Assembly: GCA_028713535.1 (NCBI GenBank)
Contig: JAQTOC010000004.1
Coordinates: 1-62,417, forward strand
DNA length: 62,417 nucleotides
From: Candidatus Nanoarchaeia archaeon
Lineage (GTDB): Archaea > Nanobdellota > Nanobdellia > SCGC-AAA011-G17 > JACPNG01
Direction: 5' to 3'
The notes under the pieces were generated by a model. The model searched no databases, was not told where the DNA came from, and worked only from the letters and a program-made list of their open reading frames with translations. How positions within the stretch are numbered: position 1 is the first letter of the stretch; every line of letters begins with the position of its first letter. The position numbers were made by a program, and so were the translations under genes. Shown piece after piece: positions 1-50,088 of the stretch.

Positions 1-2958
1 AAATGGCATGTCTTCCACATCTGAAGCAATGTATGCATTGTCAATCGGGCTTGATCCTCTTATGATTGGTGCTGTCAAGTCAGGCCCAGAACTTATTTTA
101 AACCTGATATAATAATCTCTCTCATTTTTATTCCCTTTTGCATCCTTGCATCTTACATAAACCGTGTATTTTCCCCCATTGCTGAACCTCAATGCAGTTT
201 CTTCTTTTAATTCTCCAGGCAGATTCAAAACAGACTGGTGATCATACCTCAATAATTCATCCTGGAAATAACTAACCATCTCATCAAAATCCTTTCCCTG
301 TTCTACATTAAACTTGCACTGGCTTGGCTCGTTTGTTTTTATTCCGATGTCAACAGGGCTGTATGCAGGCAGCGCATTTTCAATTTCAAATCCGGTTGCT
401 TCTTTCTTTATTTTAATTGTTTTATCTTTTATCGATGGCTCAATGATTGGTGAATCAACATCTTTAGGATTCATATCAACGCATTTTTCCTCAGCAGTTC
501 CTGCATTGATCAAGCTGCACGTTTTTCCCAGGCTCTTGCATTTATACTCAGAGCATCCAAGCTTTTCATCATTGCATTTCTCGCAATCATCTCCTCCTTC
601 AGGAGCCTGCCACATCTGGCAATTAATAGTATATTCTTTTTCTTGATACTCTGATGCAGCAACATCAAACAATTGCACAAGCTGATAATAAGTAAAGAAT
701 GTATTTAATCCTCCAAGAATGTTCCCCCAAGTATCTTCCTTAACAATTTGTCCATCCACAATTGTATAACCTTTTTTCAAAAGTTCATCTTTCTTATCTT
801 TAATAAGAAGATCAGTTGCATACTTATAATTTGATTCAATTCCAGTAGTAGCCATATCTTTTCCTAAAATCTCTTTAGTTAAACTCTGCAATTCCTTATA
901 ATTCAAAGCCGTTCCAAAAGCACTATATCCTCCAAAAACCTGCAAAGGATTTAATCCGCCCAAAGCAGTTTCTCCAATGTCTCCAGATCTTATTCCCCCC
1001 CAGATTGTTGTTACTGACTGGAAACCCAAGGCAATCCAGTTGTCCAAGTCCCATCTCTTGCTGAATTCAGAAACAGTTTCTCTGTTAGAGCTTCCAGAAA
1101 CTAAAGCATTGATATTCCCCAAATCACTTTGTTTTAAATCATAACCATCAAAATACAAGCTGTCTGACTTCTTCTCAGCACTTGCAGTATTAACATAACC
1201 ATCAAAAGTAGCAACCCCATTCACATTAAAGTAAGCTCCGCAATCGCCTAAGCTTTTGCAGTAGTTGTTTCCTGCAACAACCCATTCATCCTCAGTGCAC
1301 TGGCAGTTTTTAACGCATTCATATGCAGTGTCTTTCCCAGAAATAAATCCAACAACTCTTGCAAGTCCTCCTCTGACCCACTCAACTTTACAGGTCTGGC
1401 TTCCTATGCTGCATCCAGTTTTAGATTCACTGTCAACAGAAACATTTCCGTTTTCGTTTTGTTTAGTATAATCAACACTCCAGAACTTCATTCCAGGTGG
1501 AACATTAGGAACACATTTTCCATTAGCGCCTTTCAGCCATTTTTCATAAATTGTTTCTTCATCGCCATTTAAGTTTGTTTCAATTTCATCATCGCTTAAA
1601 AATCCAAATATGCTTCCTGAGTTTTCAGACCAGTAGCAATCTCTTGTGTTAATATCATTGCAGCATTCCTTTGCACTGCATAATATCTGTGCTTCATTAA
1701 TATTTTCTGTGCCCTCAATTTGCACTAATGTTCCAGCGTCGTCAGGAACCGGGTCTTCTACCCCACTGCATTTTCCGCTATACATATTTCTAAGAACGCT
1801 CGGATTATTGCATGTTCCACAATCAGAATATCTGTTCGGAACACATCCAGCCTCAATATACCCTTTTTCTATATTGATAGATTCAAGCAAGCCTGTTGGT
1901 TCTTCACCTTGGATCTGCTGGACACACATTTCTTCTCTGTAGTCTTTGCATTCCTCAATCATTTCCTCTCCGTTAATGCACAAAGCCCTGTAATGCCTGC
2001 TTCCAACAAGATCTAATCCCTCTCCTACAGCGCCCTCATAAATACACCATGACTCTCCAACGTTCCTGCTTTTTCCAGAGCTTGGAGCAGCATCAAATTT
2101 AGTAGTTTCCTTACAGTTTACATCCTTGCATATAAACTCGCCGTATGCTGGTTTTTTAGTTGTATAATTCCCGCAAATAGTTCCAGAAACATAATCGCAG
2201 TTTCCACAATTAGTATCATCTGACTCAGCTTTGCAGTTTATATCTTTTACATATCCCTGGTTGTAACTTACATCCTTGTTTGAAGTATAAACATTCTCTC
2301 TGTTCCCACATGAGTCATACCAGTAAACTTTTCCTTGGTAGCATTCAGTATGATGCTGTTTTGCACAGCCACAGCTTAGCATGTCATTGCTGCACAGCAT
2401 ATCTTTGAAAAATCCCTCAGTGCTTTCATTGCTTCCCTCGCCAGCACTGCATGAATCTCTTGTTGTAAATATGCACGAATCTCCTGAGACACAGCATCCT
2501 GTTTCCTTGCTTTTTGATTTAGCCAAACATGTTTTCTCATCTGTGATTGAAGAGTCAAAAGTTGTTGTTATGTCTGAATATTTTGATCCTGTTTCCTTGC
2601 ATTTAACCTCTGTAACAAAAAATGCCTCTGTACCAATTAAACAACATCCATTAGTACATTGAGAAACTGAACATGAAGCATCAGCACTAAATGTTCCTCC
2701 GCTTTCCTTGCAAAGTGCCTGCGGAGTGTTCTTGAAACATCTACCTTCATCCTGTGAGAAACAGCATCCTAAATTGCAATAACTTGTCTGCTCGCAGGTA
2801 GCATAATTTTTCCTGAAAGCAGAACTGCATTCATTTTCATCAGTATACTGGCAGTAGTCTCCTGAATTAGTTCTCTCGCAGCATGCATCAGTTGCACTGA
2901 CAAAACTAACCAAGCAAATAAAGATAAATACAAAAACAAAAAGTTTTGATAGTTTCAT
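1..2958 (-). CDS. Giant cysteine-rich secreted surface protein, paralog of 3809..7051 (3' end runs off the window)
   Basis: Absent from the ORF track because it is open at the window edge. Manual translation from ATG 2958 gives MKLSKLFVFVFIFICLVSFVSATDACCERTNSGDYCQYTDENECSS (signal peptide, then Cys-rich modules). The frame is open where spot-checked (2340: YQGKVYWYDSCGNRENVYTS; 1500: PPGMKFWSVDYTKQNENGNV). It shares VYWYDSCGN, GESWC, VGSRHYR, WQAP..GD.CEKC and CS.YKC motifs with the 1080-aa neighbour. ATGA start/stop overlap with 2955..3761. Confidence 0.8.
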   Translation of the reverse strand, partial: MKLSKLFVFVFIFICLVSFVSATDACCERTNSGDYCQYTDENECSSAFRKNYATCEQTSYCNLGCCFSQDEGRCFKNTPQALCKESGGTFSADASCSVSQCTNGCCLIGTEAFFVTEVKCKETGSKYSDITTTFDSSITDEKTCLAKSKSKETGCCVSGDSCIFTTRDSCSAGEGSNESTEGFFKDMLCSNDMLSCGCAKQHHTECYQGKVYWYDSCGNRENVYTSNKDVSYNQGYVKDINCKAESDDTNCGNCDYVSGTICGNYTTKKPAYGEFICKDVNCKETTKFDAAPSSGKSRNVGESWCIYEGAVGEGLDLVGSRHYRALCINGEEMIEECKDYREEMCVQQIQGEEPTGLLESINIEKGYIEAGCVPNRYSDCGTCNNPSVLRNMYSGKCSGVEDPVPDDAGTLVQIEGTENINEAQILCSAKECCNDINTRDCYWSENSGSIFGFLSDDEIETNLNGDEETIYEKWLKGANGKCVPNVPPGMKFWSVDYTKQNENGNVSVDSESKTGCSIGSQTCKVEWVRGGLARVVGFISGKDTAYECVKNCQCTEDEWVVAGNNYCKSLGDCGAYFNVNGVATFDGYVNTASAEKKSDSLYFDGYDLKQSDLGNINALVSGSSNRETVSEFSKRWDLDNWIALGFQSVTTIWGGIRSGDIGETALGGLNPLQVFGGYSAFGTALNYKELQSLTKEILGKDMATTGIESNYKYATDLLIKDKKDELLKKGYTIVDGQIVKEDTWGNILGGLNTFFTYYQLVQLFDVAASEYQEKEYTINCQMWQAPEGGDDCEKCNDEKLGCSEYKCKSLGKTCSLINAGTAEEKCVDMNPKDVDSPIIEPSIKDKTIKIKKEATGFEIENALPAYSPVDIGIKTNEPSQCKFNVEQGKDFDEMVSYFQDELLRYDHQSVLNLPGELKEETALRFSNGGKYTVYVRCKDAKGNKNERDYYIRFKISSGPDLTAPIIRGSSPIDNAYIASDVEDMPF

Positions 2959-3761
2959 GCAAACCTGTCCTCTCCCTCAATAGCAAACTGGAAACTATAT
3001 TCATTGCCTTCCTTGACAATGTCATAAACCTTGTCCGGATAAGGTTTTTTTAGATAAATTTTGTATTCTCCTTTCTTTGCAAGCATATACGTTAACGTAT
3101 CAAAGTATCCAGTTACAGCTTCGCCAGCAAAAGCATCCCATCCATTTATTACATCTTGTGAAACATCATAAAGCTGGCCAAGCGGATAATCAAAGTTAAT
3201 CTCAAACTTGTCCTCTGAAACACTGACATCCTTGCTCTTTCCGCTTAATTTAACAGGCCAGTTGACATTCAGAACAACCTGGTCTGGTCTTATGGCAAAT
3301 TCATATTTTGGTGTTCCGGTTGTAATAACATTATATTTTTTAAATCCGCCTGTGTCTTTTACAGACTCCAAACAATCATTCATGAAATAAGCAGCAGCCT
3401 CATTAAGCTGATCTTCCATTTCTTTTATTGTTAACATCCTGTTGCTGCAGCCATTTTTATTGGGGATATCATAACATAGGTAGCTTACCTTGCTGTCAGC
3501 ATATAATCTGTAGCTTCCCTCAGTAGTCTCCAGATAGCCTCCTTGTTTTCCAATTGTTTTCAATAGTTCATTTGGGCTGTTTAGATTTTCATCATAACCG
3601 CATTCAATCATCTTATCCCTTATTAGATCCATCTCAGACTCTAAGCTTTCAGAAGTTATTGGCATGAATATCGTGTTTCTGGCAACCAAAAACAAAGCCA
3701 CCACCACAACAATAACTATTCCAATAATAACAAACAAAGTTACCTGACCTCTTTTTTTCAT
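2955..3761 (-). CDS. Prepilin-like protein (class III signal peptide), paralog of 33241..33939
   Basis: N-terminus MKKRGQVTLFVIIGIVIVVVVALFLV has basic residues, then G|Q, then a long hydrophobic helix, as in archaeal type IV prepilins. The globular remainder aligns by eye with 33241..33939 (KVSY, E.F.F.FD, C-terminal Y.F.FA). Its stop overlaps the start of the downstream giant gene. Confidence 0.65.
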   Translation of the reverse strand: MKKRGQVTLFVIIGIVIVVVVALFLVARNTIFMPITSESLESEMDLIRDKMIECGYDENLNSPNELLKTIGKQGGYLETTEGSYRLYADSKVSYLCYDIPNKNGCSNRMLTIKEMEDQLNEAAAYFMNDCLESVKDTGGFKKYNVITTGTPKYEFAIRPDQVVLNVNWPVKLSGKSKDVSVSEDKFEINFDYPLGQLYDVSQDVINGWDAFAGEAVTGYFDTLTYMLAKKGEYKIYLKKPYPDKVYDIVKEGNEYSFQFAIEGEDRFA

Positions 3762-3808
3762 TTTAACTCTCCTTTATTCTTGTTTTCATTTTTTAAAAAT
3801 CTTACCTT

Positions 3809-6800
3809 TCAAACATTTATGCTGTAAACCGGGCTTAAGTTATTTTCACCATCCTTGCATATTAAATAATACCTGTTATTTTCAACAACAAACATATGTT
3901 CATAATCCACTTTATCTGTATCTTCTCCACTTCCAAATGAAAAATCATCCTCAGTAGAGTACTCGCATTCTGCATCTTCATCCAGTTCAACATGTAACGT
4001 ATCGTCTTTCTTATACAACCTGACAATAACAGGGTAGTTTACATCCTTGGTTACAGCAAATTTAATTTCTTTTGTCGCCTTGTTCCCAGCCACGTCCTCA
4101 CATTCAACCTTAAAGTCATAACTCCCCATCGCAACATCTTTAAATTCCTGGCTGTGTAAATTTGAGTTTGTTTCTTTAAACTTAATTCCGTTATATTCGC
4201 ATTCAGCCTTTCCGTTTTCTGCTCCTCCAGAAGTTGCAACATTCAATGTAAATGTATTTTTATACAAGCTTGTTTCTTTTGGGGTATAATCATCTATTGT
4301 TAATTCGCTTGGAGATTCTTTTAGATTAATCAAATAAGAATCCTGATTTACGTTTCCGCTTGAATCCATGCATTTAAAGTAATAACTAACCTTGTTGTCT
4401 TTAAATTCCAGATCAACATTTATTTTACATATATATTTATCATCGTTTTTGCTGCAGCTTGTTTCAGACAGCATCTCACCGTATTCTTTACCTTCATCAG
4501 AGTATTTACATTTAGTTGGTTCATTTGTGTAAACATTAATACCAATTTGTTTTAAGCTATAAGGAACAAAGCTATTGTCCTTGGGGTCACTTGCCTCAAT
4601 TATCGGAGCAGTCAAATCTGGCCCTTCTTTGGTATTAAACTTAATCGTATAAGGAACTTCATTTGCATTTGAAGATTTTCCTTTGCATCTTACATACAAA
4701 ATATATTTCTTGCCTGGCTCAGCTAAAATGCTTAATGAATGCTTGACATCATAATAGCCCTCTCCAAAGTAATTTACCATTGCATCATATCTTGTGCTTG
4801 GATCCTCAGAGAATTTGCATTGTGCAATTTTGTTTGTTTTAATTCCAACATTCAATCTGGTGTAAGCAGTCACATCCGGAGTTATTTTAAATCCTCTTCC
4901 GTCTTCAGCTAGCTTATATCCTTTGGTTAAATTTTCAGGCCAAGCAGTTATTACTGGAGACGTAATGTCCTTTTGTTCCAATTTGACGCACATTGGCCTG
5001 TCAGTTCCAGCATTCTCCTCGATAAACTCACACTGTGTTCCTAGACTTTCGCATTTGTACTTTGAACACTCTTTGAATTTTCCATACTCTCCGTCAACTA
5101 ATCCGCACTTCTCGCAATTGTCTCCATTGTCTGGAGCCTGCCATGCAGAACAAACTGTAGTAACCATCCTGGATTCATCAGTACTCATGAACCAGTCAAC
5201 AACAGTGAGAACTGCTGCAGCAACAACAACCGCTACAACAACCGGACCCAAAATCGGACCCAGCCCTAACAATTCTCCTATCCCCACCACATTAGAACTC
5301 CCAAAGAAAGCAGGTAATAATTCTACACCATAAACTAGATGAAAAAATGCTGCAGCCAGAGAAACACCTATACCAGCTACTCCTAAAGACCTGACCATAA
5401 CCAATTCAAAATTAACTCCCTCAGATCCAGATGATGATGCAGAAGAAACAAAATCCTCATAGTTAATTTCTCCTAAATACAAACCTTTAACATCTTGGAA
5501 TAATTCAGACGATTCAATAGGAAATAAATTTTCTTTCATGTTTTTCTTGGGCATCTCTTTTAATTCAGGAAAGTTTTCTATAAAATTTGAAAATTCATCT
5601 TCAGGCTGTTCAATAGCTCCTTCCCAATTTCTAACAAATCCGTCACCATTAAATTCACCTTTCCAGTTATACTTAGCTCCGCAATCTCCAGCAGAATTAC
5701 AAATATAATTGCTTAATGCCATCCAATTATCAGAATAAGCACTGCATCCCTCAGCACAATACATTTCTCCTCCAAGAGAATATGCTTCCGATTCCCAAAC
5801 GCTTAAGGCCTGGTTAAACCCGCCCTCACAGTTCTTAGATTCTTCTCCTAAATTTCCAGAAGACACCAGAGGCAGGCATCTCCCTAAAGCCTGATCCATC
5901 TCAATCTGCCTTCTTAAATCTGGAAACTCTGTTACATTTTTATCATTTAAGATTGGGCTGCCCTCTAATTTTTCTGCAATAGTCTCTTCATCCAAACCAG
6001 AGCTTAAACTTAACCAGTAGCAATCCTTGTCAGTTTTCTCGCAGCATTTTTTGTCAGCGATTAATGCATCTGTATAATCTTCAATCTCCTGATTAAAAGC
6101 ATCATCATCGTCATAGGTCTTAGGCAATAATTCGTAAGCAGTATTACAGTCACTCATGCATTTATCATATCTGTTTTCTTTGCAGGCAGCCTCCCTAAAA
6201 GTTTGTCCATTAACATTGACATCAGCATACATGCATATTTCATTTCTGTAATCCTCGCATGGCTCTTCAATCTCAACCCCATCAATACAAATATGCCTGT
6301 AATGCCTCGAACCAACTGCATCTAAACCAGGCCCAGAAGCAGAATCATAAACACACCAGGACTCTCCATTCTTTCTCATAACTCCTGTGTCTTTGGTGTT
6401 TTCATCCTTGTAAGTAGTTTCGCAATCTAAAGTATAACAATCAACCTTTCCATTTTCATCCCTGCATTTTAATCCGCTTGCATAATCGCATTTCTTAACA
6501 ATATTTTCTTTATTGCCACATGAGTCATACCAGTAAACATCCCCATTAGAACATTGCTTATAATTTTCTTTTTTGCATCCGCAAAAGCTCACACCAGAAC
6601 AAAATTGATCATCATAAAATTCTCCAGAACATAAATTCTTGGTCGTATAAGTGCATCCTTCATCTAAACAACAGCCAGTAGCAGAAGCCTCACAAGAAGA
6701 AGTGCATTCAGTTTCAGAGCCACCCTCACTAAATGCATAATCAATTCCTGAATATGATGAAGCAGTGGCTTCGCATTTATACTTGCTTACAAAGCTGCAC

Positions 6801-7051
6801 TGGTCTCCTATCTTGCAACAACCCTTCTGGCATTTTGAATAAGTGCTGCATTCAGGGCTTGAAAAAAACTGTCCGCCTTTATTTGAACACTCGCTCTGGG
6901 ATGTATTGTCTGAACACAGACCTTCACTCTCTAAAAAACAGCATCCTGTATCCTCAGCCCTGACTTCTTTAAGAGAATAAACTGAAAACAAAGCAAAAAT
7001 AAGGATTATGATTTCAAAAATAGCATTAGCTTTAACAAACCCCTTTTTCAT
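3809..7051 (-). CDS. Giant cysteine-rich secreted/membrane-associated surface protein (1080 aa)
   Basis: Signal-anchor N-terminus. The first ~450 aa are Cys-rich (CC, CxxC-like spacing; VYWYDSCGN, VGSRHYR). A central Gly/Ala/Val hydrophobic block follows, then four C-terminal repeats each with a conserved Cys pair (QCKF...YVRCKG; KCKY...YFKCMD; ECEY...KVECED; ECEY...YLICKD). Confidence 0.85.
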   Translation of the reverse strand: MKKGFVKANAIFEIIILIFALFSVYSLKEVRAEDTGCCFLESEGLCSDNTSQSECSNKGGQFFSSPECSTYSKCQKGCCKIGDQCSFVSKYKCEATASSYSGIDYAFSEGGSETECTSSCEASATGCCLDEGCTYTTKNLCSGEFYDDQFCSGVSFCGCKKENYKQCSNGDVYWYDSCGNKENIVKKCDYASGLKCRDENGKVDCYTLDCETTYKDENTKDTGVMRKNGESWCVYDSASGPGLDAVGSRHYRHICIDGVEIEEPCEDYRNEICMYADVNVNGQTFREAACKENRYDKCMSDCNTAYELLPKTYDDDDAFNQEIEDYTDALIADKKCCEKTDKDCYWLSLSSGLDEETIAEKLEGSPILNDKNVTEFPDLRRQIEMDQALGRCLPLVSSGNLGEESKNCEGGFNQALSVWESEAYSLGGEMYCAEGCSAYSDNWMALSNYICNSAGDCGAKYNWKGEFNGDGFVRNWEGAIEQPEDEFSNFIENFPELKEMPKKNMKENLFPIESSELFQDVKGLYLGEINYEDFVSSASSSGSEGVNFELVMVRSLGVAGIGVSLAAAFFHLVYGVELLPAFFGSSNVVGIGELLGLGPILGPVVVAVVVAAAVLTVVDWFMSTDESRMVTTVCSAWQAPDNGDNCEKCGLVDGEYGKFKECSKYKCESLGTQCEFIEENAGTDRPMCVKLEQKDITSPVITAWPENLTKGYKLAEDGRGFKITPDVTAYTRLNVGIKTNKIAQCKFSEDPSTRYDAMVNYFGEGYYDVKHSLSILAEPGKKYILYVRCKGKSSNANEVPYTIKFNTKEGPDLTAPIIEASDPKDNSFVPYSLKQIGINVYTNEPTKCKYSDEGKEYGEMLSETSCSKNDDKYICKINVDLEFKDNKVSYYFKCMDSSGNVNQDSYLINLKESPSELTIDDYTPKETSLYKNTFTLNVATSGGAENGKAECEYNGIKFKETNSNLHSQEFKDVAMGSYDFKVECEDVAGNKATKEIKFAVTKDVNYPVIVRLYKKDDTLHVELDEDAECEYSTEDDFSFGSGEDTDKVDYEHMFVVENNRYYLICKDGENNLSPVYSINV

Positions 7052-7106
7052 ATAAAAACAAGAGTAAAGTTTATTTTAAATAGTTTACTACTCCCAAACT
7101 CAGAAG

Positions 7107-7595
7107 TCACGTATTATATGTTATTATTCCATCCGGGGTTTCATAATCAACATAACCTTTTTCAACATTAAAATAAATTGAGTTTGATTTCATAAATTCT
7201 GGATGGTTAGCCTTCAAAAACTTCCTGTATCCTCTTACAGCCTCAAAGAAATAAAACTTAAACTCGTCCAATTCCAAACTTATGTTTTTAAAATCTTCAG
7301 GTTTAAAACCAAGTTCCAATCCAACTTTTTTAACAAAACCTTCAAATGAACTCAACATAAAATAAGGTGTATCATCCAGCCCCTCTAAACTTCTCCAAAG
7401 AATATCATCAACTCCAATCTCTAGATACTGTTTCCCTCTTTTCTCAGGGATTTTCCCACTAATCATATAAGTCCTAGGTTTGTTGCCATGACGATGTATC
7501 CATATTGGGGGGGTAGACTCAATTTCTGAGAAAAGGTCCTTTTTGAACAGTTTTTCATACTGCTCCTGCGTCAAGGTTTTTAATGAAGATACCAT
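7107..7595 (-). CDS. Hypothetical cytoplasmic protein
   Basis: Clean 162-aa ORF with ATG start and ordinary composition. No motif I recognise. Confidence 0.55.
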   Translation of the reverse strand: MVSSLKTLTQEQYEKLFKKDLFSEIESTPPIWIHRHGNKPRTYMISGKIPEKRGKQYLEIGVDDILWRSLEGLDDTPYFMLSSFEGFVKKVGLELGFKPEDFKNISLELDEFKFYFFEAVRGYRKFLKANHPEFMKSNSIYFNVEKGYVDYETPDGIITYNT

Positions 7596-7701
7596 TAAAA
7601 AAATAAAGAATTACAATTAATATTTAAGCATTATTGCTCTGGAACAGCAAATTATATAAAGATTCAAACCCCCTATTTTATATGTATTTTCTCAAAATAA
7701 G

Positions 7702-8139
7702 ATGAGAGAGTTAGAAATCTTAAAAAAAATCCTTAACCAAGAGTTTGAGGCCGAAAGCAGGTATATTGAGCATATAAACAAAATAAGAACCCCGATAATA
7801 AGAAAAATGCTAAAGGATTTAAAAGCAGAAGAATCAAAACACAAAAGACAATTAATCACTTTAATAAAAAATTTAGATGAAGATTTTAACGAAAAAGAAT
7901 ACGCAGAAACAAAAAAAATCCTTCCAGAAGAGCCAGGAACTGAAAACTTTAAATTAGTTCAGGCCTTGCTTGAGCTTGACAAAGAAGCAGAAGAGGAATC
8001 ATACAAAGAATATACCGAAGCTTCAAATGAACTTGACACCCCAATAAGGGAAATCCTAATAAAATTCAGGAACGATGAAGATATCCATATCAAGAAGATT
8101 AAGAATTTGATAGATCAGCTTGCAATGTTAAACAGATAA
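7702..8139 (+). CDS. Ferritin-like / rubrerythrin-fold four-helix protein (tentative)
   Basis: Helical 145-aa protein with paired E...E..H-type segments (EAESRYIEH, AEESKHKRQ, EAEEESYKEY, NDEDIHIKK), reminiscent of di-iron four-helix bundles. Confidence 0.45.
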   Translation: MRELEILKKILNQEFEAESRYIEHINKIRTPIIRKMLKDLKAEESKHKRQLITLIKNLDEDFNEKEYAETKKILPEEPGTENFKLVQALLELDKEAEEESYKEYTEASNELDTPIREILIKFRNDEDIHIKKIKNLIDQLAMLNR

Positions 8140-28571: not shown

Positions 28572-29078
28572 ATGGATAAAAAAGGTGCAGTTGAACTTTC
28601 AATTTCTACAATAGTTGTTGTTATCATAGGTGTAACATTATTGGTGTTAGGCCTTACATTTGTAAGAGGGATATTTAAAAAAGTTGGTAGTTTGTCAGAC
28701 CAGTCCTTCCAGGTAGGGGAAAAAATGATACAAGATCAGATGTCCTCAGAGCAGAAATTCTGGATATCAGGAGTAACATTTGAAATTGAATCTGGAGAAT
28801 CAATAACAGTCCATACAGGAATACAAAACTTTGGTGACCCCGGAGTCTCAAATACGTTTGAGCTTAAGGTAGAACCCGGCCAAGGTGTTGGAAAAGATTG
28901 GTTTACTTTGCCCCCTAGCATGAAAGTCAGTGTAGGCGAGAAAAAAGCATTTCCATTCGTCATTAATGTTCCTAAAGGGACTGAGCCAGGAAAAGTATTT
29001 ACATTTAATATTATCGCATCAAAAGACAGCAAAGAATACGACAGCCAGGCAATAATCATAAAAATAGCAAAGGAATAA
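28572..29078 (+). CDS. Archaeal type IV pilin-like protein (class III signal peptide)
   Basis: MDKKGAVELSISTIVVVIIGVTLLVLGL is a textbook KKG|A prepilin signal. The remainder is a beta-rich domain. GAGGTGA Shine-Dalgarno upstream. Confidence 0.7.
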   Translation: MDKKGAVELSISTIVVVIIGVTLLVLGLTFVRGIFKKVGSLSDQSFQVGEKMIQDQMSSEQKFWISGVTFEIESGESITVHTGIQNFGDPGVSNTFELKVEPGQGVGKDWFTLPPSMKVSVGEKKAFPFVINVPKGTEPGKVFTFNIIASKDSKEYDSQAIIIKIAKE

Positions 29079-30229: not shown

Positions 30230-33200
30230 TTATTTTGTTGTAGCTATTTTAACTTCTGGCATAGTATCTTCATCATTAGACCATAAGACATTTCCTTCTT
30301 TATCAGAAACACTAAGTCTGGCTCTCAATGCCACAACATAATTATCATCCTTTTCTCCAAGATCAGTTCTTAATTTTAAGCAACTATTAGAAGCCTCATC
30401 TCCATCAACCCCATTAACATAAACTCTGAATGGTTCTGAAATCGAATATAAGCTTTCGCCAAGATTAAATCCTATGTGAGTATCATAAAATACAGTAGTA
30501 CCCATAACCTCTTCTTTACCAATTTTAACTTCAACAGTATATCCGCTGCAATCTCCTTTGTATGGAACAACTAATCCAAATTTATTATCATAACAGTTCA
30601 AGGTCTTCCCAACCGCACTTTGTTTCTTGCTATTCTTATCTATATACTTCCAAGTGATTTTGCCATAATCAACCTGGCAAATCTTATAAGTAGGACTTAA
30701 ACATTTTCCATTAGTACATCTCTCATTTGCTTTACAATGAGTTTCAACCCATACTTTATTTTCACATTTCCAAACAGAGTTTTCAGTCTTATCACAAACA
30801 GGACCAGGATAGTTAGCTATATCACAATAAGTATTTGTGTCAGGGGCAAAGGAAGTAGCACATCTTGCCTTTCCATTTTCTTCCACGCAAATCTTTTTTT
30901 CATCAGCACAGTACCCATTTGTAACCATAGATTGTTTTAATAAATCTAACAAGTCTGCCTCCTCGCTGGTAACTGTATCACCTAAAACTCCTTCAATTTC
31001 CTGAGAACCAAGAGGAATCCAATAATTGCCTGTTTTGTACTGACTCAAAATAGGTTTATCTTTGCAGGTTTTATCATTTTTAGAATCATACCCACACAAA
31101 TGCATGCAAGCAAGCAAAACATTACTGTCGCTTCCTCCGCACTTGGTGGTTCCCAATGTATCATAACAAATACTATTCACAAACTTCAGAGAAGATATAA
31201 CCTTCTCCTCTTTACTAACAGATCCAGCTCCAAGATTACAAATAGCTCCTTTATTAGCATCTGAAACACATCCATTAGCGCAACTACAAAATTCTTTTTT
31301 GGTTTTGTCACAATTCATGCCTTCTGTGTAAAGGATATTCTCCCAAGCAAGGGTCTTTCCAGATCCCACACATTTAACCAATATCTGCTGGGTGTCTGAG
31401 TATTCAACACATGCAAATTTATCACGATTAATCTCATTGCACAACTCTCCAATGTGTACAAACTTAGCATTAGATTTAACACCTTTTTTGGTAAGAGGTT
31501 GTTTAGCATCTGTTTGTTTACCAACTATTGTTGCTTTAATCTCATCTTTTTCTTTAGCTTCAATCTTAGATTTGACTTCACATCCTCTTGGAAGGACGAT
31601 TTCTTTTCCAACATCAATGCTGTTTACATTTTCAATTTTATTTTTATCCTTAACACATTTATTAACAAAATCAAGCAAGAGAGCAGACTCAGAAATTCCC
31701 TCCTCTTTTCCAGTTACTTTTTTAAGAAGGGGTTTATTCTCTTTGATGTGACCAATTAATTTATCACAATTATCCCTGACGATTGTTGTAAGCCAATCCC
31801 CAGACTTGACAGTATATTTAATTTCTTCAGAATAATCACAAAATTCATTTGCAGAAAGGGATTTTTCAGTGGATGTTTTTGCATCTTTTGTTTCTTGTGC
31901 AACTTTAGCCTTTGCAGCCTCGACTTCAGAAACAGTCTTTTCAACAAAAGTAGCACACTTTAATTTAATTTCATCATAGGCCTGCTTGGTGTTAAACTCC
32001 TGAGCAGATTCAAAGACATTGCTGTCAACCAGATCTCCAAAATGACTCTCAGTTATGGCACAAACCTTTTTTGTCTTGGGTATATAATAAAAATTATAGC
32101 CAGCACGGCCCGTAGGAACTTCCTCGCTTATAATAAAATCCTTTCCACTGAACAAATTTGAAAATTCAGCCGTCCCTTTAATCTTTAATTGCTTATTAGT
32201 TTCATAAGCTTTGGTATCAATCTCAATATCATTTTCCATAACAGAAATTTTCTCATCTTTCAAAAATGTTCCTTTTATTTTAATCTCTCCGGTTAAATCT
32301 GTAAATTTAATTGGGTTACTTACAGAAACCTCCTCAAAAACAGAATCTTCAGTAGTTACAAAATTATTATCTTCATAGCCTGTTAGAGACTGGCCAGAAG
32401 GGCCTATAAAGTTTAATTTTCCCTTGGAAAGCTCTATCTCCTTAAAATCATCATACTTGATTTCAACCCACTTGTTCCCTCCGGAAAACTCAAATCTGAA
32501 ATTCCCTGGCTGGACCTCATCTGAAGCAACAATTGTTGTTGATTCATCCCCTACAATAAATGAACATTTTTTATCCTTAAGTGAGACAGATATCGAATTT
32601 TCAAACTGGATTAAATTGCCGCATACATCTGCCGGAGAATCTTTTGAAGTTGAAACCTTCATGTCCTTCTTAAGAGAACTATAGTAAAAACTTAGTTTTT
32701 CATCAGGCTGAATGTTATTTTCATCAAATCCAAAGTCCTGCCCCTTAAACTTAAATATGGGGGTGGATGTATCCGCCTGTTTCAAAAAGAATTTAATAAC
32801 TGGATTATTAATTTTAAGTCCAACTGCTCCTGAATCTTGGGTAGGAACTCCTGTAATCTCTGAAAGAATATCTGAAGAAACAGAACAGTCTCCAGATATA
32901 ACAACATAAGAAACATCCAACAGATTATTTCCTTCCCCTTCACTTAGCCTAAGAGTATATTTCTCAAAAGGTCCATTTTTATATTTAATCTGCTCCCCAA
33001 CAACATCAAAATTAAAGACTAAGTCGTTTTTAGAAAATCCAAATAACTTCTCATAATTATTAAATGCAGCATCAGTTGCTTCAACCCTAAAGGTATCACA
33101 ACCAAGATTAGCTAAAGCTTTAGGAGTAGTGATATACAAAACTTCCTTGCCATCGATAGTATCAAGATTAAATAAAATTTCCTCAGCACTGACAAATCCA

Positions 33201-33244
33201 CTAACCAAAACTGCAAGCATAATCAATAAAATAAATTTCCTCAT
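30230..33244 (-). CDS. Giant secreted surface protein (1004 aa) with LysM-like segment and Cys-rich C-terminal half
   Basis: Signal peptide MRKFILLIMLAVLVSGFVSAEE. LysM-like YTVKSGDWLTTIVRDNC...VGKEIVLP. The C-terminal ~450 aa are Cys-rich. ATGA overlap with the upstream prepilin-like gene. Confidence 0.8.
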   Translation of the reverse strand: MRKFILLIMLAVLVSGFVSAEEILFNLDTIDGKEVLYITTPKALANLGCDTFRVEATDAAFNNYEKLFGFSKNDLVFNFDVVGEQIKYKNGPFEKYTLRLSEGEGNNLLDVSYVVISGDCSVSSDILSEITGVPTQDSGAVGLKINNPVIKFFLKQADTSTPIFKFKGQDFGFDENNIQPDEKLSFYYSSLKKDMKVSTSKDSPADVCGNLIQFENSISVSLKDKKCSFIVGDESTTIVASDEVQPGNFRFEFSGGNKWVEIKYDDFKEIELSKGKLNFIGPSGQSLTGYEDNNFVTTEDSVFEEVSVSNPIKFTDLTGEIKIKGTFLKDEKISVMENDIEIDTKAYETNKQLKIKGTAEFSNLFSGKDFIISEEVPTGRAGYNFYYIPKTKKVCAITESHFGDLVDSNVFESAQEFNTKQAYDEIKLKCATFVEKTVSEVEAAKAKVAQETKDAKTSTEKSLSANEFCDYSEEIKYTVKSGDWLTTIVRDNCDKLIGHIKENKPLLKKVTGKEEGISESALLLDFVNKCVKDKNKIENVNSIDVGKEIVLPRGCEVKSKIEAKEKDEIKATIVGKQTDAKQPLTKKGVKSNAKFVHIGELCNEINRDKFACVEYSDTQQILVKCVGSGKTLAWENILYTEGMNCDKTKKEFCSCANGCVSDANKGAICNLGAGSVSKEEKVISSLKFVNSICYDTLGTTKCGGSDSNVLLACMHLCGYDSKNDKTCKDKPILSQYKTGNYWIPLGSQEIEGVLGDTVTSEEADLLDLLKQSMVTNGYCADEKKICVEENGKARCATSFAPDTNTYCDIANYPGPVCDKTENSVWKCENKVWVETHCKANERCTNGKCLSPTYKICQVDYGKITWKYIDKNSKKQSAVGKTLNCYDNKFGLVVPYKGDCSGYTVEVKIGKEEVMGTTVFYDTHIGFNLGESLYSISEPFRVYVNGVDGDEASNSCLKLRTDLGEKDDNYVVALRARLSVSDKEGNVLWSNDEDTMPEVKIATTK

Positions 33245-33939
33245 TTTTCCACCCTGTTTGCAAATACTAATTCATAATCTGAATTGACATCTCCAACCAT
33301 ATAAACCATTGATTTTTCCTCGTCAAAAGAAGAATAAGTTACATCATAACCAATGTCTTTTAAAAACTCAGGATAAACATACCCAGGATCTTTTTCAGTT
33401 TTTTCAATAATGCTTAAAGCAGCACCATAGCATCCCTTGACATCAAAGTTAAACTCAGCCTCAGAGCTATCTTCAATTTTATATTCCTTGTCTCCTTTTT
33501 TCAGGTTTAAGTAATAATCCACATTGGTAGTTACAGTGTCTCCAATCTCAACCAAAACCTCGTTGCTCTTATCCAAAACCTCATACTCAGAAAGGTCAAC
33601 GCAGTCAAATAAGTTATTAGAAACATAATTTGAAACTTCAGTCTCCATTATGTCTAAATCAGGCAGGTAATTTTTCCCCAAATAATAACCATAACTGACC
33701 TTGATGCCCTGTACATCTAGGTAATTCTCAGAGTTAAGACTCCCTCCAGATAATCCAACAAGCAGCAACGATTCTCTGCTCAAATCATTGAAACAGCCCT
33801 CGATTTGCTCTCTGACTTCAGGGGCTTCTCCAGTAAAAATCCCTTGATTTATGCTTGGGATCAAGAAGATTAAGCCAACAACAATAACAACTATAATTCC
33901 AATAATAACAAACAAAGCAACCTGTCCCCTTTTTTGCAT
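33241..33939 (-). CDS. Prepilin-like protein (class III signal peptide), paralog of 2955..3761
   Basis: Start moved to ATG 33939, giving MQKRGQVALFVIIGIIVVIVVGLIFLI, nearly identical in pattern to the N-terminus of 2955..3761. The rest aligns by eye. Confidence 0.65.
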   Translation of the reverse strand: MQKRGQVALFVIIGIIVVIVVGLIFLIPSINQGIFTGEAPEVREQIEGCFNDLSRESLLLVGLSGGSLNSENYLDVQGIKVSYGYYLGKNYLPDLDIMETEVSNYVSNNLFDCVDLSEYEVLDKSNEVLVEIGDTVTTNVDYYLNLKKGDKEYKIEDSSEAEFNFDVKGCYGAALSIIEKTEKDPGYVYPEFLKDIGYDVTYSSFDEEKSMVYMVGDVNSDYELVFANRVEK

Positions 33940-46036: not shown

Positions 46037-46446
46037 TAAAAACAGTAATCGAAATACTTGGGGCTCCAAAAGAACATGTAGAGGAAACACTGAAAAAAGT
46101 TGTTGAAAAACTAAAAGAAGGTTTTAAGGTAAGAAATGCAAAAACCTATGAGGCCCAGGAAACAGAACTGGAAAAACACAAGCTATGGACTGCATTCACA
46201 GAAGCAGAAATCCAGATGGAAAATATTTCTAAAATAACCGATTTCTGTTTTGATTTTATGCCTTCTTCAATAGAAATCATAGAGCCAGATGAGCTAAGGA
46301 TAAAATCACCAGAATACGCTGAATTAATAAATGAGCTGTTAGCCAGGCTGCATCAGTACGATATGATCGTTAAAAAGTTAAACGCAGAAAACATATTATT
46401 AAAAAAGCAGATTATTTCTTCTTCAAAGAAGCAGCATATTCAGTAA
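46018..46446 (+). CDS. Hypothetical cytoplasmic protein
   Basis: 142-aa ORF with ordinary composition and a coiled-coil C-terminus. No motif recognised. Confidence 0.5.
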   Translation: MEQKIIIKTVIEILGAPKEHVEETLKKVVEKLKEGFKVRNAKTYEAQETELEKHKLWTAFTEAEIQMENISKITDFCFDFMPSSIEIIEPDELRIKSPEYAELINELLARLHQYDMIVKKLNAENILLKKQIISSSKKQHIQ

Positions 46447-47635
46447 GTGTAGCTCCTTTCTTTTTCTTGTTGAATAATTTATAAACAACAAAGATAATAA
46501 CAAATAAAACTAAAGCAAGCCAAATCCAGCTCATCGCACTCATTCTTTCCTGGATAATTTCCTGCTCCTCTTCAGTCTCGTTTGTTTCATCAAAAGTTAT
46601 GAATTCCTCAGTTATGTTTCCAACATCTGAACTCTCTTCAATTGGAGCAGAGCCTTCCTCGATTGCTTCCTTATCATTAACATCTATAAAAAGATTAAAC
46701 TCGTCGCTGTATCCTTCCTTTGTACTAACCATAATATTCCCGCTGTAACTTCCAGGCTTATAATCTCCATCCTGGTTTATGTAGAAATTAAGATTAATTT
46801 TTTCATTTTCATCAATAAAACTATAACGATCTTTTTCCAGTTCAACCAAATCCTTAATAGAATTACTGACAGTAAAAACCACCTCATGCAAACTAAAATT
46901 AAACGTATTCAATACGTTCAGTGTGCCTTCATATCCTTCATCAAAGTCTATGTTGACACTAGCCTGTTTCAAGCCATCAAATCCAAAAGAACCCAAAATA
47001 ATTTCCTCATTAACGCTTTCATTGGCAGGTTCCTCTGCAATGTTATACAATGCAAAAACCGAGTAATTTCCAATTAAGATCTCATAAATACTCTTATCAA
47101 ATTTGCTTCCATAAACATAAAAAGTCCTTGTCTCAGAAAAAGGTATTTCCAAACCAGTCTTTGATGAACTTAAATCCCCGCTGTAAATATCAAAACTAGA
47201 AGTATTAGCATTATTGTTCTTGACATAAATCTTATTGTATTTTTCCAATCCTAATTTAAAAACCCCGGGTTTATAGCTTATCCCATAACAATCATCAATA
47301 TTAAATAGCAATGAACTCTCAACAAGCTCTGTTCTAGTTCCAGTAGCATAAGGTAATTTTAATTTCAATTTGCATTCTTTATTTAGATTAGGTAAGTCAA
47401 AATAAACAAAATAATTATTTCCTTTGACTAAAAAAGGGGAAATCTCAATGTTCTCTCCGCAATTCAAAGAAAAATCTTTTGGTAAAATCTCCCTGTCAGG
47501 TACATTTATTAATTTAATCTCAGCTATGAACGTATCCTTCTTGCAATAGTTTTCCCTAAAATCATCGATTGTAAACTGCGCAAAAGAAAAACCACTAAAT
47601 AAGATTATAAATAAAATAATTAAAAACAGTTTCAT
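46412..47635 (-). CDS. Secreted beta-rich surface protein with acidic stalk and C-terminal TM anchor
   Basis: Signal peptide MKLFLIILFIILFSGFSFAQ, an acidic E-rich linker, then the anchor WIWLALVLFVIIFVVYKLF followed by KKKK. Confidence 0.6.
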   Translation of the reverse strand: MKLFLIILFIILFSGFSFAQFTIDDFRENYCKKDTFIAEIKLINVPDREILPKDFSLNCGENIEISPFLVKGNNYFVYFDLPNLNKECKLKLKLPYATGTRTELVESSLLFNIDDCYGISYKPGVFKLGLEKYNKIYVKNNNANTSSFDIYSGDLSSSKTGLEIPFSETRTFYVYGSKFDKSIYEILIGNYSVFALYNIAEEPANESVNEEIILGSFGFDGLKQASVNIDFDEGYEGTLNVLNTFNFSLHEVVFTVSNSIKDLVELEKDRYSFIDENEKINLNFYINQDGDYKPGSYSGNIMVSTKEGYSDEFNLFIDVNDKEAIEEGSAPIEESSDVGNITEEFITFDETNETEEEQEIIQERMSAMSWIWLALVLFVIIFVVYKLFNKKKKGATLTEYAASLKKK

Positions 47636-47638
47636 GAC

Positions 47639-49488: not shown

Positions 49489-50088
49489 ATGTTAAACAAA
49501 ATTAAGAGCAAAAAACCATTCTCAAAAGGAAAGCGTTCAGTGATTTATATTGGTTATTTAAAAAATAAAAAAATAGCAATAAAAAAATTAAACAAACGAA
49601 AAGATATAAAACACATAATAAACAACGAAGCAAATTACCTTAAGATTCTGAACAAACAGAATATTGGCCCTAGTTTGATATACTCAACTAAAACCTATAT
49701 GGTATATGAATTCATAGAAGGAATCAGGATAGAAACATTTCTTGAAAAAGAAACCGGGGAAAAAATAAAAAACGTTATCAAAAAAGTTTTGGACCAGTGT
49801 TATATCCTGGATAGGTTAGGCATAAACAAGCTTGAGATGAATAATCCATACAAACATATTCTCATTAATAAAAATAAAGTCAAGATGATAGACTTTGAAA
49901 GATGCTACCAAACAGAAAAACCAAAGAACCTAACCCAGTTTATTAGTTACCTGACTTCAAAGAGGATTTCTGGAATGCTAAAAGACAAAAAAATAAGAAT
50001 AAACACTAAAAAACTAATTAGCTTATGTAAAAAATACAAAAAAGATTATTCAAAAATAAGCTTTAATAAAATAAAAGATTTATGGTAA
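49489..50088 (+). CDS. Small protein-kinase-like fold protein (Bud32/RIO-like, degenerate catalytic loop)
   Basis: Gly-rich loop FSKGKRSVIYIG, KIAIKK (beta-3 Lys) and MIDFERC (DFG-like). The catalytic-loop Asp is not evident. Confidence 0.4.
   Translation: MLNKIKSKKPFSKGKRSVIYIGYLKNKKIAIKKLNKRKDIKHIINNEANYLKILNKQNIGPSLIYSTKTYMVYEFIEGIRIETFLEKETGEKIKNVIKKVLDQCYILDRLGINKLEMNNPYKHILINKNKVKMIDFERCYQTEKPKNLTQFISYLTSKRISGMLKDKKIRINTKKLISLCKKYKKDYSKISFNKIKDLW

What the first reader, a model, noticed from the sequence alone, without database searches (positions are those of the whole stretch)
1..7051. Tandem giant Cys-rich paralogs flanking a prepilin-like gene, with ATGA translational coupling
Two very large secreted proteins (1080 aa, and more than 985 aa truncated by the window edge) are clear paralogs. 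They share VYWYDSCGN, GESWC.Y, VGSRHYR, WQAP..GD.CEKC and CS.YKC.SLG blocks. A 268-aa protein with a class III (prepilin) signal peptide lies between them, and its stop overlaps the start of the downstream giant gene (ATGA at 2955-2958). In a reduced genome, about 7 kb spent on one cassette suggests a major surface structure. One possibility is a pilus-tip or filament-associated adhesin for host or partner attachment. I cannot place either family.
Basis: partly seen in the sequence, partly recalled or inferred. Interest (0 to 1): 0.7.

Follow-up and report, generated by a model that had tools for sequence, protein, structure and literature searches.

The report
Giant surface proteins with pilin-like partners
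Two huge cysteine-rich secreted paralogs and the pilin-like protein between them form the start of an uncharacterised cell-surface gene cluster that is widely conserved in Woesearchaeota-type (DPANN) archaea, continues with more pilin-like genes and usually the S-layer gene, and most likely builds a pilin-anchored surface or attachment structure.

Summary
All three genes lie on the minus strand. giantA (7051..3809, 1080 aa) and giantB (2958..1, cut by the contig end) are paralogs (BLASTP E=3e-102). The 268-aa gene between them has a near-invariant K-R-G-Q plus hydrophobic-helix N-terminus, and its stop overlaps the giantB start (ATGA).

The pairing is not local. In 78 species-level loci of Woesearchaeota/Nanoarchaeota, a giant sits directly downstream of the 268-aa gene in 57 of 60 testable cases and directly upstream in 35 of 54. 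Beyond the window edge, relatives continue with three or four further pilin-like genes (39/45). An S-layer gene (PF05124) follows in 31/40.

The giant family is large, with 2,459 clusters (50% identity) at E<=1e-30. It has no Pfam, NCBIfam or PDB match. High-confidence AlphaFold models (pLDDT 86 and 92) have no structural relative apart from the Ig-like tail domains.

My best reading (about 0.5) is a pilin-anchored, type-IV-filament-like surface assembly that displays the two giants. It resembles minor-pilin/PilY1 modules and the archaeal clade-1 pilus loci, but it is built from new families, and no assembly ATPase is linked to it. An adhesin role is inferred, not shown. I classify it as a new variant of a known kind, of moderately high interest.

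The parts
3809..7051 (-). giantA: complete 1080-aa secreted Cys-rich protein (short or 'A' type, with a central hydrophobic segment)
   Evidence: ORF. 772 homologs, all unnamed and all from Nanoarchaeota/Woesearchaeota. AF2 model of residues 33-812 has pLDDT 86 and pTM 0.76.
6956..7051 (-). giantA N-terminal signal region (residues 1-32). It has a hydrophobic core and VRA|ED before the first CC, and also carries the conserved K-A-x-F-E-I motif.
   Evidence: Read from the sequence. N-terminal comparison. The motif is present in 48/71 short-type and 5/23 long-type giants. Cleavage is inferred, not predicted by a tool.
6596..6946 (-). Three ~40-aa 'GCC...C...C' Cys-rich repeats (residues 36-152). 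Most homologs have four.
   Evidence: Consensus and invariant Cys columns. Beta-hairpin plus helix units at pLDDT >90.
6146..6595 (-). Most conserved core domain (residues 153-302: VYWYDSCGN.E, GESWC.Y, VGSRHYRH.C)
   Evidence: Majority-residue identity is 0.51-0.75 per 30-aa block, except 0.43 for the last block (residues 273-302), across 95 sequences of both paralog types. No Pfam, NCBIfam, PDB or Foldseek match.
5177..5404 (-). Central Gly-rich hydrophobic stretch of giantA (residues ~550-625; two helices, 559-573 and 602-622)
   Evidence: Maximum 19-aa hydropathy is 2.86. 83% of short-type giants reach >=2.0 against 10.5% of long-type. AF2 shows helices flanked by low-pLDDT segments.
4976..5155 (-). 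Cys-knot-like module C..WQAP..GD.CEKC ... CS.YKC.SLG..C (residues 633-692)
   Evidence: Shared with giantB. Cys invariant. pLDDT >90.
3812..4969 (-). Four tandem Ig-like beta-sandwich domains (residues ~695-1080), each with a conserved Cys pair and a C.D..GN motif
   Evidence: Sub-threshold Big_13, DUF4625 and Y_Y_Y hits. Weak HMM hits to SiiE BIg and KIAA0319L PKD domains. Foldseek gives PKD, FN3, Rib and Ig hits. Internal repeat matches appear.
7071..7082 (-). TATA-box-like TATTTAAAATAA, centred about 26 nt upstream of the giantA ATG (possible leaderless transcript)
   Evidence: Read from the sequence. Inference only.
2955..3761 (-). small268: 268-aa type-IV-pilin-like protein (class-III-type N-terminus plus a globular alpha/beta domain with four conserved Cys)
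   Evidence: ORF. Family alignment. AF2 pLDDT 91.7 and pTM 0.82. No PDB fold match. 374 confirmed relatives among GTDB species genomes.
3669..3761 (-). Class-III-type signal: M-K-K-R-G|Q-V-T-L-F followed by a hydrophobic helix (residues 1-31)
   Evidence: K-3 93%, R/K-2 98%, G-1 95%, Q+1 95%, T+3 87%, F+5 92%, G+9 95% in 66 orthologs. AF2 helix at residues 4-31.
3767..3772 (-). Shine-Dalgarno-like GGAGAG, 7 nt (from the GGAG core) before the small268 ATG, inside the 47-nt gap after giantA
   Evidence: Sequence.
2955..2958 (-). ATGA stop/start overlap between small268 and giantB
   Evidence: Sequence. The same overlap is present in the closest relatives L003 and L004.
1..2958 (-). giantB: long or 'B' type paralog without a hydrophobic centre. 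The first 986 of about 1250 aa are present; the C-terminus is lost at the contig end.
   Evidence: Translation. 66% identity to the 1250-aa P0076. Maximum central hydropathy is 0.75.

Best explanation
The window holds the first three genes of a conserved Woesearchaeal cell-surface operon. The full gene order, seen in relatives, is: giant (short type, with a central hydrophobic Gly-rich hairpin) - pilin-like 268 - giant (long type, no hydrophobic centre) - [pilin-like ~160] - pilin-like ~328 - pilin-like ~179 - pilin-like ~150. An S-layer protein gene usually follows.

Proposed mechanism:
- The two giants are exported by Sec signal peptides and fold outside the cell into disulfide-rich proteins. 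Each has an N-terminal Cys-repeat region, a conserved core domain, and four Ig-like domains at the tail.
- The four or five small proteins are made with class-III (prepilin-type) signal peptides. After cleavage at K/R-G|Q, they assemble through their shared hydrophobic N-terminal helices into a short type-IV-filament-like stem or tip complex.
- This complex holds the giant A/B pair at or beyond the S-layer. It does so in the way minor pilins carry PilY1 in bacteria, or the way the minor pilins plus two large proteins are modelled in archaeal clade-1 pili.
- The displayed giants then mediate contact with a partner cell, a surface or a conserved ligand.

Shown: paralogy, secretion-type N-termini, conserved class-III motifs, conserved gene order and tight coupling, the Ig-like tail, confidently predicted models (pLDDT 86 and 92) without a detectable structural relative, and genomic linkage to the S-layer gene.

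Inferred: prepilin processing, assembly into a filament or stem, physical association of pilin-like proteins with the giants, an A/B heterodimer, and any adhesive role.
For: Paralogy: E=3e-102.

Synteny in 78 species-level loci, all on the same strand:
- giant directly downstream of small268 in 57/60;
- giant directly upstream in 35/54, plus 10 farther up;
- d328 and d179 present in 39/45;
- S-layer homolog present in 31/40.
The full operon, with overlapping stops and starts, is seen in L001. A fifth pilin-like gene (d160) is present in 44 loci.

Class-III motifs are conserved in every small family:
- small268: K-R-G|Q-V-T-x-F (87-95%);
- d179: K-K-G/A|Q with Glu+6 at 89%;
- d150: Q+1 at 90% and Glu+3 at 81%.
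The families resemble each other only in their first 30-55 residues (hhalign), as type IV pilins do. d179 gives sub-threshold hits to GspH, PilA, ComGC and GspG N-termini.

Only 3 such N-termini occur in the 62-kb window. One belongs to a canonical-looking small pilin at 28572-29078.

Short-type and long-type giants occur as pairs on the same contigs (contig lengths combined). The hydrophobic centre is largely restricted to the short type (83% against 10.5%).

The Ig-like tail is typical of surface proteins and adhesins.

Precedent: archaeal clade-1 T4P loci with two large PilY-like proteins, at least 5 minor pilins and an S-layer-like protein (PMC4858521).
Against: - No T4P assembly ATPase signature (GxxGSGK[ST]T) occurs in the window or in any of the 80 loci. 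No T2SSE, T2SSF or Peptidase_A24 appears among the 25 most frequent families in 132 neighbouring ORFs from 22 loci.
- One preprint states that type IV pilus components are missing from DPANN genomes (10.1101/2020.05.14.094862).
- No small major-pilin gene lies in the cluster.
- The confident small268 model matches no solved pilin (best Foldseek E=0.012, TM about 0.12). Pfam and NCBIfam do not call any of the small proteins a pilin.
- The giants have their own Sec-type signals, and the short type may anchor itself in the membrane.
- The giants' most conserved region is an N-terminal core with invariant polar residues, which is unusual for partner-specific adhesins.
- The loci were collected through small268, so the co-occurrence figures are conditional on its presence.
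Confidence: 0.5

Rival explanations
1. S-layer-associated envelope scaffold. The giants and pilin-like proteins are structural parts of the cell wall, for example membrane anchors, stalks or a second sheet for an S-layer protein that lacks a membrane anchor. This would be analogous to SlaB anchoring SlaA. They would not form a filament or an adhesin.
For: - An S-layer gene (PF05124, E=1e-10) follows the cluster in 31/40 loci.
- The L001 S-layer protein has no C-terminal hydrophobic anchor (sequence).
- Short-type giants carry a hydrophobic hairpin that could serve as an anchor.
- The cluster sits in a conserved housekeeping neighbourhood, with PCNA in 14 of 22 loci.
- The core domain is strongly conserved.
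- The family is large and apparently universal in the clade.
- No pilus machinery is linked.
Against: - It does not explain why four or five different proteins keep strict prepilin-type cleavage motifs.
- In 9/40 loci with enough flanking sequence, no S-layer homolog was detected.
- S-layer-like genes are also found beside genuine archaeal T4P loci (PMC4858521), so linkage to the S-layer gene does not discriminate between the two readings.
Confidence: 0.22
2. The pilin-like N-termini are only uncleaved signal anchors. small268-family proteins would be membrane-tethered, dedicated maturation, chaperone or export helpers for the large secreted protein translated right after them, for example assisting disulfide-rich folding. 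No multi-pilin assembly would form.
For: - A distant small268 paralog at 33939..33241 (hhalign probability 99.5%) is ATGA-coupled to an unrelated 1004-aa secreted protein. This suggests a generic 'partner of a big secreted protein' role.
- small268 has a fold unlike known pilins.
- Four Cys are conserved.
- No assembly ATPase is nearby.
Against: - G-1 and Q+1 are 95% conserved, and F+5 and G+9 are also conserved. This is more than membrane anchoring needs.
- Three or four additional, unrelated class-III-type proteins lie in the same operon.
- The second cassette has no detectable homologs elsewhere, so the generalisation rests on one case.
Confidence: 0.15
3. Host-contact device that acts on the partner's envelope. 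The short-type giant's Gly-rich hydrophobic segment would insert into a host membrane, like a fusion peptide or pore former. Alternatively, the conserved core would be an enzyme that opens the host cell wall, helping this DPANN cell reach a host's cytoplasm.
For: - The hydrophobic hairpin has no basic residues in its loop and is predicted with low confidence.
- The core has invariant D, E, R and H residues.
- A DPANN lifestyle is indicated by the taxonomy of all homologs.
Against: - No structural similarity to any viral or cellular fusogen, or to any enzyme, in PDB or BFVD.
- No catalytic domain in Pfam or NCBIfam.
- The hydrophobic segment is the least conserved part of the protein.
- This reading is pure inference.
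Confidence: 0.08

Closest known systems
Archaeal clade-1 type IV pilus loci (Methanococci, Methanobacteria, Thermococci; Epd-type), as modelled by Makarova, Koonin and Albers 2016 (PMC4858521)
   Same: One locus combines two large secreted non-pilin proteins, five or so different class-III-signal 'minor pilins', and an S-layer-like protein. The large proteins are proposed to sit on the filament as adhesins.
   Different: Those loci contain the secretion ATPase, TadC-type platform proteins and the EppA peptidase, and their large proteins carry DUF2341. Here no ATPase, platform or peptidase is linked. The giants have no DUF2341 or any other Pfam domain above threshold. The lineage is DPANN, which that census did not mention (0 occurrences).
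Bacterial minor-pilin/PilY1 priming and tip complex (fimU-pilVWXY1E) and the T2SS GspH-I-J-K tip
   Same: Four or five dissimilar pilin-like proteins share only the N-terminal helix and are encoded together with a non-pilin protein of about 1100 aa. One family (d179) keeps a Glu near the mature N-terminus (Glu+6, 89%) and has faint GspH/PilA/ComGC-like N-terminal scores. The comparison with the bacterial operons rests on established knowledge of those systems.
   Different: There is no sequence or fold relationship to PilY1 or to any solved pilin. There are two paralogous giants rather than one. The organism is an archaeon with an S-layer and no outer membrane.
Sulfolobus bindosome (Bas system): surface proteins with class III signal peptides integrated in the envelope without a long pilus (PMC3047682, listed)
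   Same: Class-III-signal proteins are used to build a cell-envelope-associated, non-motility structure next to the S-layer.
   Different: In the bindosome the large functional proteins (sugar-binding proteins) themselves carry the class III signal and serve ABC transporters. Here the giants have Sec-type signals and no transporter is nearby.
Giant non-fimbrial adhesins with tandem bacterial Ig-like domains (for example Salmonella SiiE BIg domains, PDB 2yn3)
   Same: The C-terminal tandem beta-sandwich domains carry a D.AGN-type motif (weak HMM match; sub-threshold Big_13).
   Different: Only four such domains are present. The bulk of the protein (about 650 aa of Cys-rich N-terminal region) has no counterpart.

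Membership tests
Type IV pilin / class III signal peptide protein (small268 and the downstream d160, d328, d179, d150) | Short basic leader ending in [KR]-[GA], followed directly by a hydrophobic helix of about 20 residues | tested here: met
   The motif is conserved in all families. AF2 predicts a helix at residues 4-31 of small268.
Type IV pilin / class III signal peptide protein | Families share the N-terminal segment but have unrelated globular parts | tested here: met
   hhalign matches are confined to the first 31-56 aligned residues.
Type IV pilin / class III signal peptide protein | Pilin fold (alpha1-C packed on an antiparallel sheet) recognisable against solved pilins or pilin HMMs | tested here: not met
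   No pilin appears among the Foldseek PDB hits (best E=0.012). There are no Pfam or NCBIfam pilin models above cut-off. The canonical-looking pilin at 28572-29078 is also missed by Pfam, so this test is weak for archaeal pilins.
Type IV pilin / class III signal peptide protein | Cleavage by a prepilin peptidase | not testable with these tools
   This needs N-terminal proteomics or an in vitro PibD/EppA assay.
Type IV filament system | Dedicated FlaI/PilB-type ATPase and TadC/FlaJ-type platform in the locus or the genome | tested here: not met
   Locus level only. There is no GxxGSGK[ST]T ORF in the window or the 80 loci, and no T2SSE, T2SSF or Peptidase_A24 among the 25 most frequent families in 132 neighbouring ORFs. 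Presence elsewhere in the genome could not be tested.
PilY1 / DUF2341 pilus-associated adhesins | DUF2341 domain or PilY1 beta-propeller | tested here: not met
   No Pfam hit, no PDB sequence hit and no Foldseek hit.
Archaeal S-layer protein, S_layer_C type (for the giants) | PF05124 or related S-layer domains | tested here: not met
   The giants have none. The separate downstream 726-aa protein in relatives does (E=1e-10).
Multihaem cytochromes (alternative reading of 'Cys-rich') | CxxCH haem-binding motifs | tested here: not met
   Zero CxxCH motifs in giantA, giantB or P0076.
Cytochrome/quinol oxidase subunit 2 (a source's name for P0121, which is 94% identical to small268) | COX2 domains | tested here: not met
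   small268 has no Pfam family. The JGI name is most likely a transmembrane-helix artefact.
Viral or cellular membrane fusogens (class I/II, fusexin-like) | Structural similarity of the ectodomain to known fusogens | tested here: not met
   Foldseek against PDB and BFVD returns only Ig/FN3/PKD-type hits with E>1e-3.

The most novel reading that the evidence does not exclude
The cluster encodes a previously undescribed, lineage-defining surface organelle of Woesearchaeota-type DPANN archaea. A short stem of four or five processed pilin-like proteins would be assembled without a locally encoded pilus motor and capped by a heterodimer of two giant disulfide-rich proteins with no detectable structural relative. 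The short-type giant's Gly-rich hydrophobic hairpin would engage a membrane, either the cell's own or the host's. This would be the physical host-contact apparatus of these episymbionts.
Probability: 0.12. Interest if true: 0.85.

Novelty: new variant of a known kind. Interest (0 to 1): 0.6.

Why it matters
How Woesearchaeota and related DPANN archaea attach to and exchange material with partners is unknown, and none of them is well studied in culture. This cluster is very common in the clade. There are 374 confirmed relatives of the pilin-like gene among species-representative genomes, and at least 2,459 clusters of the giant family at 50% identity. It takes up about 1% of a sub-megabase genome (about 10-12 kb of, for example, the 829-kb AR20 genome), it lies next to the S-layer gene, and every member is annotated as hypothetical.

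Recognising it as a pilin-linked surface module has three uses:
- It gives concrete targets for cryo-ET, metaproteomics and heterologous expression.
- It supplies two confidently predicted models without detectable structural relatives.
- It shows conserved prepilin-type proteins in this DPANN clade, which sits uneasily with one preprint's statement (10.1101/2020.05.14.094862) that DPANN genomes lack type IV pilus components; the assembly machinery itself was not found here.

It also yields a testable rule: small268-family genes are translationally coupled to large secreted proteins.

Tried and rejected
- Pfam and NCBIfam scans of all cluster proteins gave nothing above cut-off except S_layer_C in the neighbouring gene.
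- Profile searches of both families against PDB sequences gave only marginal Ig-domain hits. Single-sequence PDB searches of the window's small pilin and of d179 gave nothing.
- Foldseek of both AF2 models against PDB, and of the giant model against viral BFVD, found no relative for small268. For the giant there were only weak Ig/FN3/PKD hits. Fusogen, enzyme and S-layer readings therefore gain no structural support.
- Multihaem cytochrome reading: no CxxCH motifs.
- The 'cytochrome oxidase subunit 2' name for a close homolog is rejected.
- Linkage to pilus machinery: a regex for the T2SSE Walker A motif and a Pfam census of 132 flanking ORFs were both negative.
- A homolog search with the second-cassette paralog found only the query itself. 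The 1004-aa partner is not a giant-family member (hhalign probability 0.6%).
- The first search for related loci attempt, with the 39-sequence alignment, failed for lack of a conserved stretch. It worked with 13 sequences.
- No tandem DNA repeats in 1-8000. Rfam finds only tRNA-Phe.
- Six literature searches found no description of this cluster.
- Classifying upstream giants as 'A' by summed tblastn score was unreliable. The hydrophobic centre and the length are the better markers.

Full report
**1. What is in the sequence**

The three genes lie on the minus strand. giantA is 7051..3809 (1080 aa), the small gene is 3761..2955 (268 aa), and giantB is 2958..1, giving 986 codons that run off the window. 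The window equals an entire 62,417-bp contig, so giantB is truncated by the assembly. Its ortholog P0076 is 1250 aa and 66% identical.

The stop of the small gene overlaps the giantB start in ATGA at 2955-2958. A 47-nt spacer containing GGAGAG separates giantA from the small gene. A TATA-like TATTTAAAATAA lies about 26 nt upstream of the giantA ATG; its role is inferred only.

They contain 5.4% and 6.2% Cys and no CxxCH motif.

**2. Organism and setting**

The rest of the window encodes PCNA, aRF1, two class I aminoacyl-tRNA synthetases, ScpB, RFC subunits, Cbf5/TruB-like pseudouridine synthase and tRNA-Phe. All named homologs of the three proteins come from Candidatus Woesearchaeota, Nanoarchaeota or Nanoarchaeia MAGs. 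This is a chromosomal segment of a DPANN archaeon, not a mobile element. In 14 of 22 related loci the cluster lies near PCNA, as it does here.

**3. Architecture of the giants**

Reading the alignment of 95 homologs together with the AlphaFold2 model of residues 33-812 (pLDDT 86, pTM 0.76), giantA has these parts:
- a Sec-type signal;
- three 'GCC...C...C' repeats of about 40 aa (four in most homologs);
- a strongly conserved core at residues 153-302, with invariant D-S-C-G-N-x-E, G-E-S-W-C and V-G-S-R-H-Y-R. This is the most conserved part of the family (majority identity up to 0.75);
- a more variable Cys-containing middle region;
- a Gly-rich, very hydrophobic stretch at about residues 550-625 (maximum hydropathy 2.86);
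- a Cys-knot-like W-Q-A-P..G-D-x-C-E-K-C module;
- four Ig-like beta-sandwich domains.

The hydrophobic centre distinguishes two paralog types. It is present in 83% of the 1000-1200-aa proteins and in only 10.5% of proteins of 1200 aa or more. The two types occur as pairs on the same contigs.

Sequence profiles found nothing beyond the Ig-like tail in Pfam, NCBIfam or PDB. Foldseek against PDB and BFVD returned only weak PKD/FN3/Ig matches. The N-terminal region of about 650 residues therefore has no detectable relative.

The family is large: 10,023, 4,869 and 2,459 clusters at 50% identity, at E<=1e-3, 1e-10 and 1e-30 respectively.

**4. The 268-aa protein**

Its N-terminus M-x-K-R-G-Q-V-T-x-F-V-I-x-G is nearly invariant. 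In 66 orthologs, K-3 is 93%, R/K-2 98%, G-1 95%, Q+1 95%, T+3 87%, F+5 92% and G+9 95%. That is a class-III (prepilin-type) pattern, conserved well beyond what a signal anchor needs.

The AF2 model is confident (pLDDT 91.7). It shows a long N-terminal helix, a second helix and an alpha/beta domain with four conserved Cys. No solved structure resembles it, pilins included.

Only three ORFs in the window have such an N-terminus.

**5. The cluster extends beyond the window**

In the closest relative (L001, a 509-kb contig), giantB is followed by three more genes of 328, 179 and 150 aa with overlapping stops and starts. After a short gap comes a 726-aa protein with the S-layer domain PF05124.

All three of these small proteins begin with K-K/R-G/A followed by a hydrophobic helix. 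The 179-aa family keeps Glu+6 (89%) and the 150-aa family keeps Glu+3 (81%). Most other lineages have a fifth such gene of about 160 aa just before the 328-aa gene (44 loci). Profile comparison shows that the families resemble each other only in the first 30-55 residues. That is the hallmark of type IV pilin families.

**6. Co-occurrence**

A scan of species-representative genomes with the small protein confirmed 374 relatives, and 78 loci were fetched. Results from tblastn, all on the same strand:
- a giant lies within 400 bp downstream in 57 of 60 loci with enough sequence;
- a giant lies within 400 bp upstream in 35 of 54, plus 10 farther up;
- the 328-aa and 179-aa genes are present in 39 of 45;
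- the S-layer homolog is present in 31 of 40.

The caveat is that these loci were found through the small gene.

**7. What it most likely is**

The cluster combines four features:
- four or five unrelated pilin-like proteins that share only a prepilin-type N-terminus;
- two large secreted non-pilin proteins;
- tight translational coupling;
- an adjacent S-layer gene.

Minor-pilin/large-protein modules of type IV filaments show the first three: the bacterial fimU-pilVWXY1E and GspHIJK systems (established knowledge) and, most closely, the archaeal clade-1 pilus loci. For those loci, Makarova et al. describe two large PilY-like proteins, at least five minor pilins and an S-layer-like protein (PMC4858521).

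I therefore favour a pilin-based stem or tip complex that holds an A/B pair of giants at or beyond the S-layer, probably for contact with a partner or a surface (confidence about 0.5).

The weak points are these:
- No ATPase, platform protein or peptidase is linked.
- One preprint asserts that DPANN genomes lack type IV pilus components, although another paper reports type-IV-pilin-like genes in ultra-small genomes (PMC9938205).
- The cluster contains no major pilin.
- small268 shows no recognisable pilin fold.
- The giants' core is highly conserved, which is atypical of specific adhesins.

**8. Rivals**

(a) An S-layer-associated scaffold or anchor. This is favoured by the S-layer linkage, the hydrophobic hairpin and the lack of a C-terminal anchor in the S-layer protein.

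(b) small268-type proteins as uncleaved, membrane-tethered helpers for the large protein translated after them. This is favoured by a second cassette in this same window. A distant small268 paralog at 33939..33241 (hhalign probability 99.5%) is also ATGA-coupled to an unrelated 1004-aa secreted protein.

(c) A host-membrane or host-wall-acting device. No structural or domain evidence supports this.

**9. Novelty**

No paper in the searchable library describes the cluster, and every database name is 'hypothetical'. In kind it resembles known pilin/adhesin modules. However, the protein families, the paired giants, the absence of a linked motor and the lineage are all new. I classify it as a new variant of a known kind, with interest 0.6.

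Noticed in passing
window 30230-33939 (minus strand): Second cassette. A 232-aa distant paralog of small268 (MQKRGQVALFVIIG...; hhalign probability 99.5%, E=1e-22) has a stop that overlaps, again as ATGA, the start of a 1004-aa secreted protein with a Cys-rich C-terminal half. That protein is unrelated to the giant family and has no Pfam domain. The paralog has no other homolog in the 5.8-billion-protein search.
   Followed up: partly
window 28572-29078 (+): A 168-aa ORF has a canonical-looking archaeal type IV pilin N-terminus (MDKKG|AVELSISTIVVVIIG). This suggests the organism has a prepilin-processing system. Pfam and PDB sequence searches do not recognise it.
   Followed up: partly
L016:14632-15111, L027:14473-14967, L060:14709-15194 and 41 other loci: A fifth pilin-like gene of about 160 aa (MKKRGQLLGQP...) lies between the long-type giant and the 328-aa gene in most lineages. 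It is absent from the window's closest relatives (L003, L004).
   Followed up: yes
L035:14760-15347, L038:14384-14905, L046:15315-15893, L055:16350-16931: Nucleotidyltransferase (Polbeta/NTP_transf_2) genes occur near the cluster; seven of the 132 ORFs scanned in 22 loci match. By position, ORFs in these four loci lie between the long-type giant and the pilin-like genes and look like such small insertions, but their individual Pfam assignments were not listed.
   Followed up: no
L054, L055, L057, L062 (upstream of the small gene); L045 (downstream): Some genomes carry three or more tandem giant-family genes, so the family has expanded locally beyond the A/B pair.
   Followed up: no
window 6956-7051 and homologs P0002-P0101: Short-type giants keep a K-[AS]-x-[FL]-[EQM]-I motif ahead of the signal-peptide core (48/71 against 5/23 in the long type). 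It could be a second, class-III-like site or just a conserved n-region.
   Followed up: partly
P0121: A 94%-identical homolog of small268 on a 926-bp JGI contig is named 'heme/copper-type cytochrome/quinol oxidase subunit 2'. No COX2 domain is detectable, so this is probably a misannotation.
   Followed up: yes
window 50080-52933 (minus strand): A MoxR-type AAA+ ATPase (AAA_3), a DUF58 protein and a VWA/BatA-like protein sit in a row, preceded by two large proteins without firm domains (46412-49423). This is another envelope-related module.
   Followed up: no
L079 (CAYLMH010000012.1): One locus with a diverged copy of the cluster is labelled 'uncultured Methanosarcinales archaeon'. This is either a binning error or a rare occurrence outside Nanoarchaeota.
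   Followed up: no
window 7107-7595 (minus strand): The 162-aa gene just upstream of giantA is only 26% identical to its positional counterpart in L001. tblastn with the L001 counterpart found nothing in the other loci, so it is not a conserved cluster member.
   Followed up: yes
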